From Escherichia coli (lineage in GTDB: Bacteria > Pseudomonadota > Gammaproteobacteria > Enterobacterales > Enterobacteriaceae): a DNA stretch of 64,000 nucleotides. Positions 1 to 12,536 of the stretch are shown piece by piece (the first letter of the stretch is position 1; every line of letters begins with the position of its first letter). The notes below the pieces were generated by a model, which was given only the letters and a program-made list of their open reading frames with translations, ran no database searches and had not been told where the DNA came from. The DNA is taken from NCBI RefSeq assembly GCF_048403405.1, contig NZ_CP183129.1. One strand, 5' to 3'. Position numbers and translations under genes: made by a program.

Positions 1-1556
1 CCTGCGCCCGCGTCGCCATTAACCTTTCCTCGCCGCCGAAGCAAATCTCGGCGCTGACCACTCTGAGCCACCAGCAGGAGGCGGAAATTCGCCAGCTTGA
101 GCGCGAGCTTCGCATCGGGCTGCGTACCAACACCTCACGGATGACCGAGGTGCTGGTGCAGTACGATGAAACGCTGACGGCGCTGGATGAACTGGAAGCG
201 GCCTGGCATCAGCAGCAGGCGCTGGTCCGGGAGATTATCGCGCTGCGCCAGCAGTTGCTGGGCGTGGCAGAAGACGATGCGGCGTCGTTGCCGGACGCAG
301 ATGCCGCGGAGGATACGCCGCCAGAGTCAGAGTCAGAGTCAGAGTCAGAGTCAGAGTCAGAGTCAGAGTCAGAACAGGATAATACCGGTGCCGTACCGGC
401 TGATGAGGCCGACAGAGAACAGCCGGAAGAGACCGCTGAAACAGTTTCCCCGGTACAGCGGCTGGCCCAGCTCACTGCCGAACTGGACGCCCTGCATAAC
501 GACCGGTTGCTGGTCTCCCCGCACGTCGATAAAAAACAGATTGCGGCGGTGATTGCCGAATGGACCGGCGTGCCGCTCAACCGCCTGTCGCAGAATGAAA
601 TGTCGGTCATCACCGACCTGCCGAAATTGCTGGGCGACACCATCAAAGGCCAAGACCTGGCGATTGCCAGCCTGCATAAGCATCTACTGACCGCACGCGC
701 CGACCTGCGTCTTCCGGGACGCCCGCTCGGTGCGTTCCTGCTGGCTGGCCCCAGCGGTGTGGGTAAAACCGAAACCGTCCTGCAACTGGCAGAGCTGCTC
801 TACGGCGGTCGCCAGTACCTGACCACCATCAATATGTCCGAATTCCAGGAGAAACACACCGTCTCGCGGCTGATTGGTTCGCCTCCGGGCTACGTTGGCT
901 ACGGTGAAGGCGGCGTACTGACCGAAGCGATTCGCCAGAAACCCTACTCGGTAGTACTGCTCGATGAAGTGGAAAAAGCGCACCCGGATGTGCTCAACCT
1001 GTTCTACCAGTCGTTCGATAAGGGCGAAATGGCAGACGGTGAAGGCCGCCTGATTGACTGCAAAAATATCGTCTTCTTCCTGACGTCCAACCTCGGCTAC
1101 CAGGTAATAGTCGAGCACGCCGATGACCCGGAAACCATGCAGGAAGAACTGTATCCGGTGCTGGCCGACTTCTTCAAACCTGCCCTGCTGGCGCGTATGG
1201 AAGTGGTGCCGTATCTGCCGCTGTCGAAAGAGACGCTCGCCACCATTATCGCCGGAAAACTGGCCCGTCTGGATAACGTGCTGCGCAGTCGCTTTGGTGC
1301 AGAAGTGGTCATTGAACCGGAAGTGACGGACGAAATCATGAGCCGCGTCACCCGCGCGGAAAACGGCGCGAGGATGCTGGAATCGGTCATCGATGGCGAC
1401 ATGCTACCGCCGCTCTCGCTGCTGCTGTTGCAGAAAATGGCGGCTAACACGGCGATTGCCCGGATTCGGTTGTCGGCGGTGGACGACGCATTTACGGCAG
1501 ACGTGGAAGATGCTCAGAACGACGAGTCCGTCACAAAGGATGAAACGGTTTTATGA
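1..1556 (+). CDS. clpV: T6SS AAA+ ATPase ClpV/TssH, C-terminal ~518 codons (5' end lies outside the window)
   Basis: Reading frame is open from position 3 to the TGA at 1554-1556. Translation carries the second AAA+ module (Walker A LLAGPSGVGKTE, Walker B VVLLDEVEKAHPDV) and a Clp-type C-terminal domain. Confidence 0.85.
   Translation, partial: CARVAINLSSPPKQISALTTLSHQQEAEIRQLERELRIGLRTNTSRMTEVLVQYDETLTALDELEAAWHQQQALVREIIALRQQLLGVAEDDAASLPDADAAEDTPPESESESESESESESESEQDNTGAVPADEADREQPEETAETVSPVQRLAQLTAELDALHNDRLLVSPHVDKKQIAAVIAEWTGVPLNRLSQNEMSVITDLPKLLGDTIKGQDLAIASLHKHLLTARADLRLPGRPLGAFLLAGPSGVGKTETVLQLAELLYGGRQYLTTINMSEFQEKHTVSRLIGSPPGYVGYGEGGVLTEAIRQKPYSVVLLDEVEKAHPDVLNLFYQSFDKGEMADGEGRLIDCKNIVFFLTSNLGYQVIVEHADDPETMQEELYPVLADFFKPALLARMEVVPYLPLSKETLATIIAGKLARLDNVLRSRFGAEVVIEPEVTDEIMSRVTRAENGARMLESVIDGDMLPPLSLLLLQKMAANTAIARIRLSAVDDAFTADVEDAQNDESVTKDETVL
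324..371 (+). repeat. Perfect hexanucleotide tandem repeat (GAGTCA)x8 inside clpV, encoding (Glu-Ser)8
   Basis: Eight identical GAGTCA units read directly from the sequence, in frame with clpV and followed by GAA CAG. Confidence 0.95.
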
Positions 1557-9168: not shown

Positions 9169-10083
9169 ATGGCTGGTTTAAGGAATAATAACAACACACA
9201 GAATGCACAGTGGGCTGATTATGTGGGTGACATTCTTCGGGGGGCTCAACCGATAAACCAGCTAGTACCTCAGCACCCTTATCTTAACGACGTCCCACTC
9301 ATTGATGAATTAAGGCGTCAGAACACTCATCATGTTATTCTCTTGACACTTGATGTTGCAAAAAAAATACTCAGCTCAATAACATCATTTGATTACATTC
9401 ATTTTATCACTACACATCCTTCAGGTATAAAAGATACACTCGCTTGGTTAGTTAACGCGGGTAAATTAATGACTGAGTTTGATGGAAATGGGAAAATTAT
9501 ATTTAACTTTAATACCTTAAAGTATACAAAAGCAAGTTACTTTGAAATACTTGGAGAGAAATATATAAAAATTACAACATCCAGCCCCTGGCTTTTAGAA
9601 AAGCTCGGTAAATATATTTTCTCTTCACGAGCGCCTCAAGTTCTGGAACTCGCTATTGGCTGGCGAGGAGCTTTATCTGAATCAATAAAAGGAGTTAAGT
9701 TCTGTATCTGGTTTTCAGTAGCCTGGAGAACCATAGAATTTATTATGAGTTCAGAGCGAGATCTGGTTAATTTTCTTGGTGATTTTTCAATGGATGTGGC
9801 CAAAGCAGTGATTGCAGGCGGTGTTGCAACTGCTATTGGAAGCCTGGCTTCTTTTGCCTGTCTTAGTTTTGGCCTTCCAGTAATTCTTGTAGGAGGAGCA
9901 ATTTTACTTACAGGGATAGTGTGTACAGTTGTTTTAAATGAAATCGATGCTCAATACCATTTATCAGAAAAATTAAAAGATGCAATTAGAGATGGACTAA
10001 AACGGCAACAGGAACTTGATAAATGGAAAAGGGAAAACATGACTCCATTTATGTATGTTCTTAACACTTCCCCCGTGATATGA
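9169..10083 (+). CDS. Hypothetical protein; candidate Hcp-linked T6SS effector with C-terminal glycine-zipper hydrophobic helices
   Basis: ATG at 9169 with GGAG 7 nt upstream (tracked ORF begins at a TTG at 9154). AT-rich codon usage matching hcp. C-terminal segment VAKAVIAGGVATAIGSLASFACLSFGLPVILVGGAILLTGIVCTVVL. Function is inferred from context only. Confidence 0.55.
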   Translation: MAGLRNNNNTQNAQWADYVGDILRGAQPINQLVPQHPYLNDVPLIDELRRQNTHHVILLTLDVAKKILSSITSFDYIHFITTHPSGIKDTLAWLVNAGKLMTEFDGNGKIIFNFNTLKYTKASYFEILGEKYIKITTSSPWLLEKLGKYIFSSRAPQVLELAIGWRGALSESIKGVKFCIWFSVAWRTIEFIMSSERDLVNFLGDFSMDVAKAVIAGGVATAIGSLASFACLSFGLPVILVGGAILLTGIVCTVVLNEIDAQYHLSEKLKDAIRDGLKRQQELDKWKRENMTPFMYVLNTSPVI

Positions 10084-10247
10084 GGATTAACTATGCGTTT
10101 ACATGTTAAATTGAAAGAGTTTTTTTCGATGTTTTTTATAGCCATATTATTTTTCCCTGCATTCAATGCTTCTTTATTTTTTACCGGAATTAGGTGATGC
10201 TGCCAACTTACTGATTTAGTGTATGATGGTGTTTTTGAGGTGCTCCA

Positions 10248-10523
10248 GTGGCTTCTGTTTCTATCAGCTGTCCCTCCTGTTCAGCTACTGACGGGGTGGT
10301 GCGTAACGGCAAAAGCACCGCCGGACATCAGCGCTATCTCTGCTCTCACTGCCGTAAAACATGGCAACTGCAGTTCACTTACACCGCTTCTCAACCCGGT
10401 ACGCACCAGAAAATCATTGATATGGCCATGAATGGCGTTGGATGCCGGGCAACCGCCCGCATTATGGGCGTTGGCCTCAACACGATTTTCCGCCATTTAA
10501 AAAACTCAGGCCGCAGTCGGTAA
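10248..10523 (+). CDS. insA: IS1 InsA (transposition inhibitor / N-terminal part of transposase)
   Basis: 91-aa ORF beginning [43 protein letters not shown], inside IS1. Confidence 0.9.
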
Positions 10524-10945
10524 CCTCGCGCATACAGCCGGGCAGTGACGTCATCGTCTGCGCGGAAATGGACGAACAGTGGGGATACGTCGGGGCTAAA
10601 TCGCGCCAGCGCTGGCTGTTTTACGCGTATGACAGGCTCCGGAAGACGGTTGTTGCGCACGTATTCGGTGAACGCACTCTGGCCACACTGGAGCGTCTTC
10701 TAAGCCTGCTGTCGGCCTTTGAGGTCGTGGTATGGATGACGGATGGCTGGCCGCTGTATGAATCCCGCCTGAAGGGAAAGCTGCACGTAATCAGCAAGCG
10801 TTACACTCAGCGAATTGAGCGGCATAACCTGAATCTGAGACAACATCTGGCAAGGCTGGGACGGAAGTCACTGTCGTTCTCAAAATCGGTGGAGCTGCAT
10901 GACAAGGTCATCGGGCATTATCTGAACATAAAACACTATCAGTAA
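10442..10945 (+). CDS. insB: IS1 InsB reading frame (expressed as InsAB' transposase by -1 frameshifting)
   Basis: -1 frame ORF overlapping the end of insA, translation typical of IS1 InsB ([21 protein letters not shown]...). Confidence 0.88.
10496..10505 (+). promoter_or_regulatory. IS1 programmed -1 ribosomal frameshift site TTTAAAAAAC
   Basis: A6C motif lies in the insA/insB overlap; the IS1 frameshift mechanism is established knowledge. Confidence 0.8.
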
Positions 10946-11484
10946 GTTGGAGTCATTACCCGGAATTAAACCTCTATATTCAATAATAAAAGGCTCCACG
11001 GAAATATTTTATGATTGGAGAATGTTGATTCTATGCTTCGGTTTCATATCGTTTTCCTTGTTAAATATTCATGTAATTTTACTAACAATAATAAAATCAT
11101 TCTTAATAAAAAAAACAAAGGTAATCAATTTCGCCACAGACATAACAATACAGCTAACTCTTATATTTTTACTAATAGCTATCGTAATAGCACCTTTAAT
11201 AGCTCCTTTTGTCACAGGATATGTCAATGCTAATTGTCACCCCTGCGGTAATAACACGGGGATTTTCCCAGGAGCAATCTATATTAAAAATGGCATAAAA
11301 TGTAATAATGAACATATTTCTCGCAAGGAAGATTAAGCAGTTAAATAATTAAATATTCTAAAACAAACAGTTTTTAACGCCGGATTCCATGTCCTTTCTT
11401 GCACTGTCTTTGTCAGGAACAATTTCTTATGCAAAGAATTTTGTATTATTGCCGCCAGAAATTCCTGGCGGCAGATATAATTTA

Positions 11485-12270
11485 TTATTGATAGCGGTTA
11501 ACCAAATCTTTTACCATCGCTTTATAGGTCTTTTGCTTAAGTTGTATGATTTGCTGCTCTGTCATATCAGTCGTACTGGCTTCATTCTTGCCGGGAAATG
11601 GTGGAAGCACTTTATATTCATAATTCACCGGCGACCAGGCAGCCCACTCACCTGTAGCTACATCCACCAGCGTGAATCGCACCAGATAGCGCAGTGAGAT
11701 TGTGTTAGTCAGTTTTTCATTTTTATAATCGGACCATACTGTTGATTTCAGTGCAGTGTCATATTTTCCTGTCTGCAACGTATCCTGGTAAACAATAATC
11801 GCTTTCTGATGGCCTTTTGCCGCCACAAAACGTAATGCCTGCATCCAGTTCATATTTTCAGCACTGGCAACATCCTCGTTCTCATTTTTATCTTTGTTTT
11901 TGTTACAAGTCAGAGGCTTTTGTCTGTCCGGGATACCAGAGAATGTGGAAACAGTATAATATTTTCGCATCTCCTCCTGCATAATGGTTTCCGGTGCGCG
12001 ACTGCCAGACTGGACAAGTATTACGGGAGAATTGAGAGGCACACGAAACTCATCTCCTTCAAGCGCAGCCTGAATATCCTCCTCGGATACAGCCAGAGTG
12101 GTTTCATTACCGAATAAATCTTTGTCTGTCAGTTGCGGGGGAATGTTTTTATTAATATTACTTTGTGTAACTTGAACTTTTTTCTTTTTTTCATCAATAG
12201 AAGATTGAGAGGCACATCCTGCAAGCAGCGAGAATAATACACATATGCAACAAACCTTTTTTGAATTCAT
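11485..12270 (-). CDS. yafT: Lipoprotein YafT
   Basis: 261 aa with lipobox LLAGC after a signal peptide; lies next to aspV as yafT does in K-12. Confidence 0.8.
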
Positions 12271-12536
12271 AATCGGACACTCCCTCGCCTGTCATAATGA
12301 TTAGAATATTTAGCACTGATAACGGACTCTAATTATATACCCCACTTAAATAATAACAAACAAAATCAACATGAAATATACATTCATTTAATCAATATAA
12401 AATTATTCACTAAAAATATATTTAAGTTGAATGGTTCGATATCATTATTGAATTTTAATAAATGAGACAACAAGCGAGAGTTACGCACTTACGCCAGAGT
12501 AAAATCATTGAACAGAGAAATATCGTGATTTAAATG

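What the first reader, a model, noticed from the sequence alone, without database searches (positions are those of the whole stretch)
324..371. Perfect (GAGTCA)8 microsatellite encoding a (Glu-Ser)8 linker inside clpV
Eight identical hexanucleotide units are unusual within an enterobacterial coding sequence. Being a multiple of three, slipped-strand gain or loss of units would change the length of an acidic flexible linker in ClpV without breaking the frame. This is a plausible contingency or strain-typing locus.
Basis: seen in the sequence. Interest (0 to 1): 0.5.

Follow-up and report, generated by a model that had tools for sequence, protein, structure and literature searches.

The report
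Known E. coli typing repeat in ClpV
The eight-copy GAGTCA repeat is real and varies from 0 to about 40 copies between E. coli strains, but it is already used as a strain-typing marker and sits in a floppy, dispensable-looking loop of the type VI secretion ATPase ClpV, so it is ordinary rather than new.

Summary
Window 324-371 is a perfect (GAGTCA)8 array, in frame with tssH/clpV, and encodes (Glu-Ser)8.

It is a genuine, highly polymorphic repeat (VNTR). Across complete E. coli genomes the array runs from 0 or 1 to 40 units. Every change seen is a whole 6-bp unit. Copy number differs even between genomes whose 353-nt flanks are identical (8 to 23 units).

It is also already known. Primers published for the 10-locus generic E. 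coli MLVA scheme (GECM-10, Løbersli 2012) match window 31-49 and 535-556 exactly. The amplicon is 526 bp, which equals 478 + 8x6, the published offset for locus CVN016. Published CVN016 alleles (ST38 10-20, ST405 up to 47) match what the genomes show.

In the protein, the repeat lies in the middle of a 55-residue acidic loop (residues 511-565) that AlphaFold2 predicts to be disordered. The loop sits in the coiled-coil middle domain. Most ClpV homologues lack this insertion, and ClpB does not align to it.

The best explanation is replication slippage of a 6-bp unit in a length-tolerant loop, with little effect on function. The strain-typing reading is supported. The "contingency locus" reading is not, because these changes cannot switch the gene on or off. 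Whether loop length affects ClpV activity is untested.

The parts
324..371 (+). Perfect (GAGTCA)8 array = (Glu-Ser)8, residues 524-539 of the 933-aa TssH
   Evidence: residue numbering from L005 1606-4404
1..1556 (+). 3' part of tssH/clpV (C-terminal 518 codons; the gene starts upstream of the window)
   Evidence: translation; TIGR03345 1118.6 bits against cutoff 884.95; Pfam AAA_lid_9, AAA_2 and ClpB_D2-small; RefSeq annotation of strain 4621
285..449 (+). Coding region of the disordered acidic loop (residues 511-565) that holds the repeat; a lineage-specific insertion in the middle domain
   Evidence: AF2 gives no secondary structure for 511-565 and pLDDT below 50 for 512-560. Alignment occupancy is 4-18% in 80 ClpV homologues. 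ClpB structures align to 178-500 and 570-892 only
39..284 (+). Middle-domain coiled-coil helices before the loop (residues 429-454 and 460-510)
   Evidence: AF2 secondary structure; alignment to the ClpB M-domain region
450..497 (+). Return helix of the middle domain after the loop (residues 566-581)
31..49 (+). Exact site of published MLVA primer CGCCGCCGAAGCAAATCTC
   Evidence: primer table in PMC8143711 and PMC8261245
535..556 (-). Exact site of published MLVA primer GCAATCACCGCCGCAATCTGTT; amplicon 31-556 = 526 bp = 478 + 8x6
   Evidence: offset formula in PMC8143711

Best explanation
The array is a hypermutable, in-frame hexanucleotide VNTR in the E. coli aspV-island T6SS gene tssH/clpV. 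It is the locus typed as CVN016 in the GECM-10 MLVA scheme. It probably grew from a single GAGTCA followed by GAA (P-E-S-E-Q). During replication the nascent and template strands misalign by whole 6-bp units (inferred). Loops of this size are poorly recognised by MutS-dependent mismatch repair (background knowledge), so units are gained and lost at a high rate once the array passes a few copies. Every change adds or removes one Glu-Ser pair in a disordered acidic loop in the coiled-coil middle domain, away from the two ATPase modules and from the sheath-binding N-domain. The protein therefore tolerates any length, and copy number drifts almost neutrally. That makes it a good epidemiological marker rather than a switch. 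Shown here: the polymorphism, its unit-wise nature, the primer identity and the loop location. Inferred: the slippage mechanism, the escape from mismatch repair and the near-neutrality.
For: Polymorphism. The locus is found in 2736 of 5426 complete E. coli genomes. Match spans differ from the query only by multiples of 6 bp in all 106 full-length rows listed. I read 17 alleles base by base: 0 (GAGGCA), 1, 2, 3, 4, 5, 8, 11, 13, 14, 15, 18, 23 and 40 units. All are in register and pure apart from occasional synonymous GAATCA units, and the flanks do not change in length apart from one 21-bp deletion upstream, seen in two of the fetched alleles (L010, L011). Among genomes with 100% identical flanks the counts are 8, 14, 15, 16, 18, 19 and 23 units. 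In the 99.8% group they run from 14 to 40. Short arrays look stable: 15 genomes in the spread sample all have 2 units and 9 all have 1. Known marker. The published primers match at 31-49 and 535-556 with no mismatches, and 526 bp = 478 + 48, the CVN016 offset. Published CVN016 alleles are 10-20 for ST38, 10-47 for ST405 and 0 for ST131. A roughly 475-bp product with no repeats is reported for ST131. In the genomes, a record named 'strain ST38' has 15 units, and strain ECONIH2, which has no GAGTCA unit (its ST was not checked), gives a 484-bp in-silico product. Tolerant site. AF2 (mean pLDDT 90) places (ES)8 in a 55-residue coil with pLDDT below 50, between helix 460-510 and helix 566-581. 80 ClpV homologues mostly lack these columns, and the few with long inserts there carry unrelated low-complexity sequence. 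ClpB structures skip 501-569. The 3-unit orthologue Z0254 is a working ClpV in EHEC (PMC5363993). The 14-40-unit alleles fetched (L001-L004) and all others listed are annotated as intact CDSs, none flagged as a pseudogene.
Against: Neutrality is inferred, not measured. No functional comparison of alleles exists in the searchable literature. Very long arrays are concentrated in particular lineages (the near-identical-flank groups), which could reflect either history or selection. Mutation within a clone was not observed directly here; the genome data compare strains, not sibling colonies. Two secondary papers label this primer pair 'CVN017' while giving the matching 478-bp offset to CVN016, so the locus name rests on offset and population behaviour, not on the original paper, which I could not read.
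Confidence: 0.85

Rival explanations
1. Functional tuning. The length of the Glu-Ser loop modulates ClpV activity, for example the mobility of the middle domain, the rate of sheath disassembly, or a partner or kinase interaction on the serines. Copy-number change would then be an adaptive, heritable rheostat for T6SS firing.
For: In ClpB/Hsp104 the middle domain is a regulatory element (background knowledge; 'hyperactive' ClpB middle-domain mutants appear among the PDB hits). The arrays stay pure and very long (up to 40 here, 47 published) in successful clinical lineages. The loop is retained as an acidic insertion in all E. coli alleles read.
Against: The loop is absent from most ClpV homologues and is not conserved in sequence where it is present. 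It is predicted to be disordered. Copy number varies widely among genomes with identical flanks, with no preferred length. A 3-unit allele is functional. No T6SS kinase or Fha gene was seen in the part of the cluster examined. Purity of the array is what ongoing slippage alone would produce.
Confidence: 0.08
2. Classical contingency (phase-variation) locus. Slippage switches ClpV, and hence the T6SS, on and off.
For: It is a simple-sequence repeat inside a coding region of a virulence- and competition-associated system.
Against: The unit is 6 bp. All 106 listed alleles differ by multiples of 6, and all 17 alleles read are in frame across the repeat. The two pseudogenised tssH copies met (L010 with an internal stop, L014 truncated) are not explained by the repeat.
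Confidence: 0.02
3. Assembly or sequencing artefact, or a chance low-complexity run.
For: None beyond the general difficulty of assembling repeats.
Against: The chance expectation is about 4e-21. The identical 8-unit allele is present in five independent complete genomes (H88-H92). The locus is typed by PCR and capillary electrophoresis in many laboratories.
Confidence: 0.01

Closest known systems
GECM-10 MLVA locus CVN016 (Løbersli, Haugum & Lindstedt 2012; used in PMC3407997, PMC3877011, PMC5217547, PMC3519732)
   Same: It has a 6-bp repeat unit. The published primer pair matches the window exactly. The amplicon fits the 478 + 6n formula. The locus is present in only part of the species, about half of complete genomes here, and published studies report null alleles. 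The copy-number ranges by lineage match the published ones.
   Different: Nothing biological differs; this is the same locus. The one loose end is naming: two secondary papers print this primer pair under 'CVN017'. No open paper states that the locus lies in tssH.
Other in-frame coding VNTRs used for E. coli typing (CVN014, CVN015, and the O157-specific 6-bp loci)
   Same: They are hexanucleotide units, hypervariable, in frame, and used as epidemiological markers.
   Different: They lie in different genes. This one lies in a cytoplasmic AAA+ ATPase of a secretion machine.
Middle (M) domain of ClpB/Hsp104 disaggregases
   Same: The position in the fold is the same: a coiled coil inserted after the D1 small subdomain, with a long helix followed by a turn and return helices.
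   Different: ClpB has no disordered acidic loop at the turn. In ClpB the M-domain docks Hsp70/DnaK, a function not attributed to ClpV (background knowledge). Here the return part is a single helix.
Phase-variable simple-sequence contingency loci (e.g. Haemophilus or Neisseria tetranucleotide and homopolymer tracts)
   Same: The mutational mechanism is the same: slipped-strand mispairing in a simple-sequence repeat.
   Different: There the unit length is not a multiple of three, or the tract sits in a promoter, so expression toggles. Here the frame is always kept.

Membership tests
TssH/ClpV (T6SS sheath-recycling AAA+ ATPase) | Scores above the curated cutoff of the equivalog model TIGR03345 | tested here: met
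   1118.6 bits (8-unit allele) and 1121.9 bits (18-unit allele) against cutoff 884.95
TssH/ClpV (T6SS sheath-recycling AAA+ ATPase) | Two AAA+ modules plus a ClpV-type N-domain | tested here: met
   Pfam AAA, AAA_lid_9, AAA_2 and ClpB_D2-small. The N-terminus matches the V. cholerae ClpV N-domain structure 3zri at E 2.9e-33
TssH/ClpV (T6SS sheath-recycling AAA+ ATPase) | Encoded within a T6SS gene cluster | tested here: met
   tssJ-tssK-tssL(icmH)-tssH-vasI-tssA-tssM-vasL-hcp at the aspV tRNA
TssH/ClpV (T6SS sheath-recycling AAA+ ATPase) | Disassembles contracted TssBC sheaths | not testable with these tools
   Only indirect: deletion of the EHEC orthologue Z0254 abolishes KatN secretion (PMC5363993)
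MLVA locus CVN016 (GECM-10) | Published primer pair flanks the repeat | tested here: met
   Exact matches at 31-49 (+) and 535-556 (-). The pair is conserved in 15 of 17 other alleles with 0-1 mismatches per primer
MLVA locus CVN016 (GECM-10) | Amplicon size = 478 + 6 x copies | tested here: met
   526 = 478 + 48
MLVA locus CVN016 (GECM-10) | Copy number varies between strains, with the published lineage pattern | tested here: met
   0-40 units in genomes. Published values are ST38 10-20, ST405 10-47, ST131 0. 'Strain ST38' has 15 units. The STs of the 28-40-unit genomes were not determined
MLVA locus CVN016 (GECM-10) | Locus name as given in the original description | tested here: inconclusive
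   The primer tables in PMC8143711 and PMC8261245 call this pair CVN017, but the 478 offset, the 475-bp null product and the fact that CVN017 was never amplified from ESBL E. coli all point to CVN016. The original paper is not in the library
Contingency (phase-variable) locus | Repeat change switches expression by frameshift or promoter spacing | tested here: not met
   The unit is 6 bp and every allele read or listed is in frame
Contingency (phase-variable) locus | High-frequency reversible change within a clonal population | not testable with these tools
   This needs read-level or colony-level data

The most novel reading that the evidence does not exclude
The Glu-Ser loop length acts as a rheostat for ClpV. 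By changing the reach, charge or mobility of the middle-domain tip, copy number would alter how fast contracted sheaths are recycled. E. coli lineages would then carry a rapidly evolving, heritable setting for T6SS firing rate, and MLVA allele CVN016 would be a readout of it.
Probability: 0.06. Interest if true: 0.55.

Novelty: already known. Interest (0 to 1): 0.15.

Why it matters
As a marker it already matters: this is one of the more discriminating loci in a published generic E. coli MLVA scheme. The work here adds context rather than discovery. First, the marker lies in the T6SS ATPase gene tssH, inside a disordered insertion of the middle domain that tolerates 0 to at least 80 extra residues. 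Second, long alleles break the automatic naming of the gene: RefSeq calls them 'AAA family ATPase', which could make T6SS gene surveys undercount tssH in ST38-like and related lineages. Third, the natural allele series would be a ready-made test of whether middle-domain loop length matters for ClpV.

Tried and rejected
1. CVN014, the most variable 6-bp MLVA locus. I first suspected the repeat might be CVN014. Its published primers are different, and it is present in all isolates, whereas this locus is in about half of genomes. Rejected.

2. O157-specific MLVA loci. O157:H7 carries only 3-4 units here, so the locus is uninformative in that serotype. Not pursued.

3. Literature linking ClpV with VNTR or tandem repeats. 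The search found only an unrelated Vibrio paper. 'CVN016' together with 'type VI secretion' returned nothing. A molecular-dynamics paper on Enterobacter ClpV had nothing on this loop.

4. Antisense or alternative-frame ORFs over the repeat. ORFs 187-552 (+) and 209-646 (-) would read (Val-Arg)n and (Asp-Ser)n. I treated them as shadow ORFs of a GC-rich gene, and nothing supports them.

5. Frame error in my own script. The first translation was out of frame (anchor off by one). Only the DNA counts from that call are used.

6. Scans of genome contigs and metagenome contigs for the repeat in other species. Not run: the cost was judged out of proportion to what it would add.

Full report
**Observation.**

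Window 324-371 is exactly (GAGTCA)8.
- Tandem Repeats Finder gives 322-373, period 6, 8.7 copies, 100% matches, score 104. No other array in the 64 kb scores above 43.
- The chance expectation of such a run is about 4e-21.
- The array is in frame with an ORF that enters the window from upstream and stops at 1556. It reads ...EDTPP-ESESESESESESESES-EQDNT....

**The gene.**

The window is from E. coli. The closest complete genome fetched is strain 4621 (NZ_CP103479.1). It is collinear with the window at 99.97-99.997% identity over the first 50 kb, apart from two IS differences.

The ORF is tssH/clpV.
- The 933-aa product scores 1118.6 bits on TIGR03345 (cutoff 884.95).
- It has the Pfam AAA, AAA_lid_9, AAA_2 and ClpB_D2-small domains.
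- Its N-terminus matches the V. cholerae ClpV N-domain structure 3zri.
- It lies in the cluster tssJ-tssK-tssL-tssH-vasI-tssA-tssM-vasL-hcp next to tRNA-Asp (aspV) and dnaQ.
- The EHEC orthologue Z0254 is an experimentally functional ClpV (PMC5363993).

**Polymorphism.**

A 401-nt query centred on the repeat hits 2736 of 5426 complete E. coli genomes. In all 106 listed rows that cover the query, the length of the match differs from 401 only by multiples of 6.

I fetched 17 alleles and read them base by base.
- They have 0 (GAGGCA instead of GAGTCA), 1, 2, 3 (O157:H7), 4, 5, 8, 11, 13, 14, 15, 18, 23 and 40 units.
- All are in the same register, with unchanged flanks apart from one 21-bp deletion upstream, seen in two of the fetched alleles (L010, L011).
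- The only impurities are synonymous GAATCA units.
- The simplest ancestral state is a single GAGTCA followed by GAA.

Copy number varies even where the flanks do not.
- Among the 32 best hits with 100% identical flanks, counts are 8 (five genomes), 14, 15, 16, 18, 19 and 23.
- Among the 28 hits at 99.8% identity, counts run from 14 to 40.
- Short arrays look fixed: in the rank-spread sample, 15 genomes have 2 units and 9 have 1.
- This fits length-dependent slippage.

**Already known.**

Primer tables for the generic E. coli MLVA scheme (GECM-10) list GCAATCACCGCCGCAATCTGTT and CGCCGCCGAAGCAAATCTC (PMC8143711 and PMC8261245). Both match the window perfectly, at 535-556 (-) and 31-49 (+). The amplicon is 526 bp, which equals 478 + 8x6. 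The value 478 is the offset the same paper gives for CVN016.

Those two papers print the pair under the name CVN017, whose stated offset is 202. Four independent lines point to CVN016 instead:
- A Swedish study reports a 475-bp CVN016 product without repeats in ST131. The in-silico product from strain ECONIH2, which has no GAGTCA unit (its ST was not checked), is 484 bp.
- CVN017 was never amplified from any ESBL E. coli, whereas CVN016 was. This locus is present in half of all genomes.
- Published CVN016 alleles are 10-20 in ST38 and up to 44-47 in ST405. These are the ranges I see in the two near-identical-flank groups, one of which contains a record named 'strain ST38' with 15 units.
- CVN016 is described as one of the most diverse loci, with Nei index 0.70.

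I could not read the original 2012 paper, so the label carries a small residual doubt. The identity of the locus with a GECM-10 marker does not.

**Where it sits in the protein.**

The (ES)8 stretch is residues 524-539 of the 933-aa TssH.
- ClpB structures align to residues 178-500 and 570-892 and skip the stretch between them.
- I aligned 80 diverse ClpV representatives from a search of 1.84 billion proteins. Columns 510-549 of the E. coli protein are occupied in only 4-18% of sequences.
- The distance between the conserved anchors P428 and V591 is 163 residues here, against a median of 111.5.
- The few other long inserts at this site are unrelated low-complexity, mostly acidic sequence.
- AlphaFold2 on this alignment gives a confident model (mean pLDDT 90, pTM 0.77). 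It shows middle-domain helices 429-454 and 460-510, then no secondary structure from 511 to 565 (pLDDT below 50 for 512-560), then a return helix 566-581 before the second ATPase module.

The repeat is therefore the centre of a disordered acidic loop in the coiled-coil middle domain.

**Mechanism.**

Shown: unit-wise length change, in-frame conservation, location in a non-conserved disordered loop, and use as a typing marker.

Inferred:
- Changes arise by slipped-strand mispairing.
- Six-nucleotide loops are poorly corrected by MutS-dependent repair (established E. coli knowledge, not tested here).
- The loop tolerates any length, so copy number drifts nearly neutrally.

The contingency reading fails on its defining feature, because no frameshift is possible. 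A rheostat function of loop length is not excluded, but nothing here supports it.

**Annotation side effect.**

RefSeq names the 8-unit allele 'tssH', but nearly all alleles with 14 or more units are named 'AAA family ATPase'. In the 18-unit protein, however, the alignment splits into two stretches at the repeat. This probably defeats the coverage rule used for equivalog naming.

**Verdict.**

This is a real feature, correctly read at the sequence level, and it is already known as an MLVA typing locus. Interest is low. The only open question is whether loop length has any effect on ClpV function.

Noticed in passing
window 10193-10960: A complete 768-bp IS1 copy (left end GGTGATGCTGCCAACTTACTGAT, right end ...GAGTCATTACC) with an 8-9-bp target duplication (CGGAATTA at 10185-10192 and 10961-10968). 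It is inserted in the ykfM-like gene just downstream of the T6SS hcp. The otherwise near-identical strain 4621 lacks it.
   Followed up: partly
L018 11769-12476 (strain 4621), corresponding to window ~12540: Strain 4621 has about 709 extra bases at L018 11769-12476, a gap that contains the annotated IS200C transposase gene (11872-12330). It lies next to tRNA-Asp (aspV), and the window lacks it. The window is therefore from a different, closely related strain.
   Followed up: partly
tssH in RefSeq records H61-H120 (e.g. L001 2606-5467): PGAP names tssH alleles with 14 or more Glu-Ser units 'AAA family ATPase' instead of TssH. This could bias gene-name-based T6SS surveys.
   Followed up: partly
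window ~9169-10083 (by collinearity with L018): The gene after hcp is annotated in strain 4621 as a pseudogene with an internal stop. I did not check whether the window carries the same stop.
   Followed up: no
L010 (DETEC-C31) and L014 (EC556): Two of the 17 fetched tssH alleles are annotated pseudogenes (one with an internal stop, one missing the C-terminus). Neither defect is caused by the repeat, which suggests occasional decay of this T6SS in some strains.
   Followed up: no
window 324-371: Each GAGTCA unit contains a GANTC (HinfI / CcrM-type methylase) site, so long alleles carry dozens of tandem sites. No known relevance in E. coli.
   Followed up: no
window ~20.8-26 kb: A complete rRNA operon (16S, tRNA-Ile, tRNA-Ala, 23S, 5S, tRNA-Asp) lies on the minus strand, followed by gmhB, metNIQ, rcsF, proS ... 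dnaE, lpxDAB, bamA. This is ordinary core-genome context, seen in the strain 4621 annotation.
   Followed up: no
row H60 (strain MS 21-1): A 34-nt stretch of the query (window 168-201) matches 100% a feature annotated 'CRISPR' in another E. coli genome. This could be a spacer against this tssH region or a mis-annotation. Not examined.
   Followed up: no
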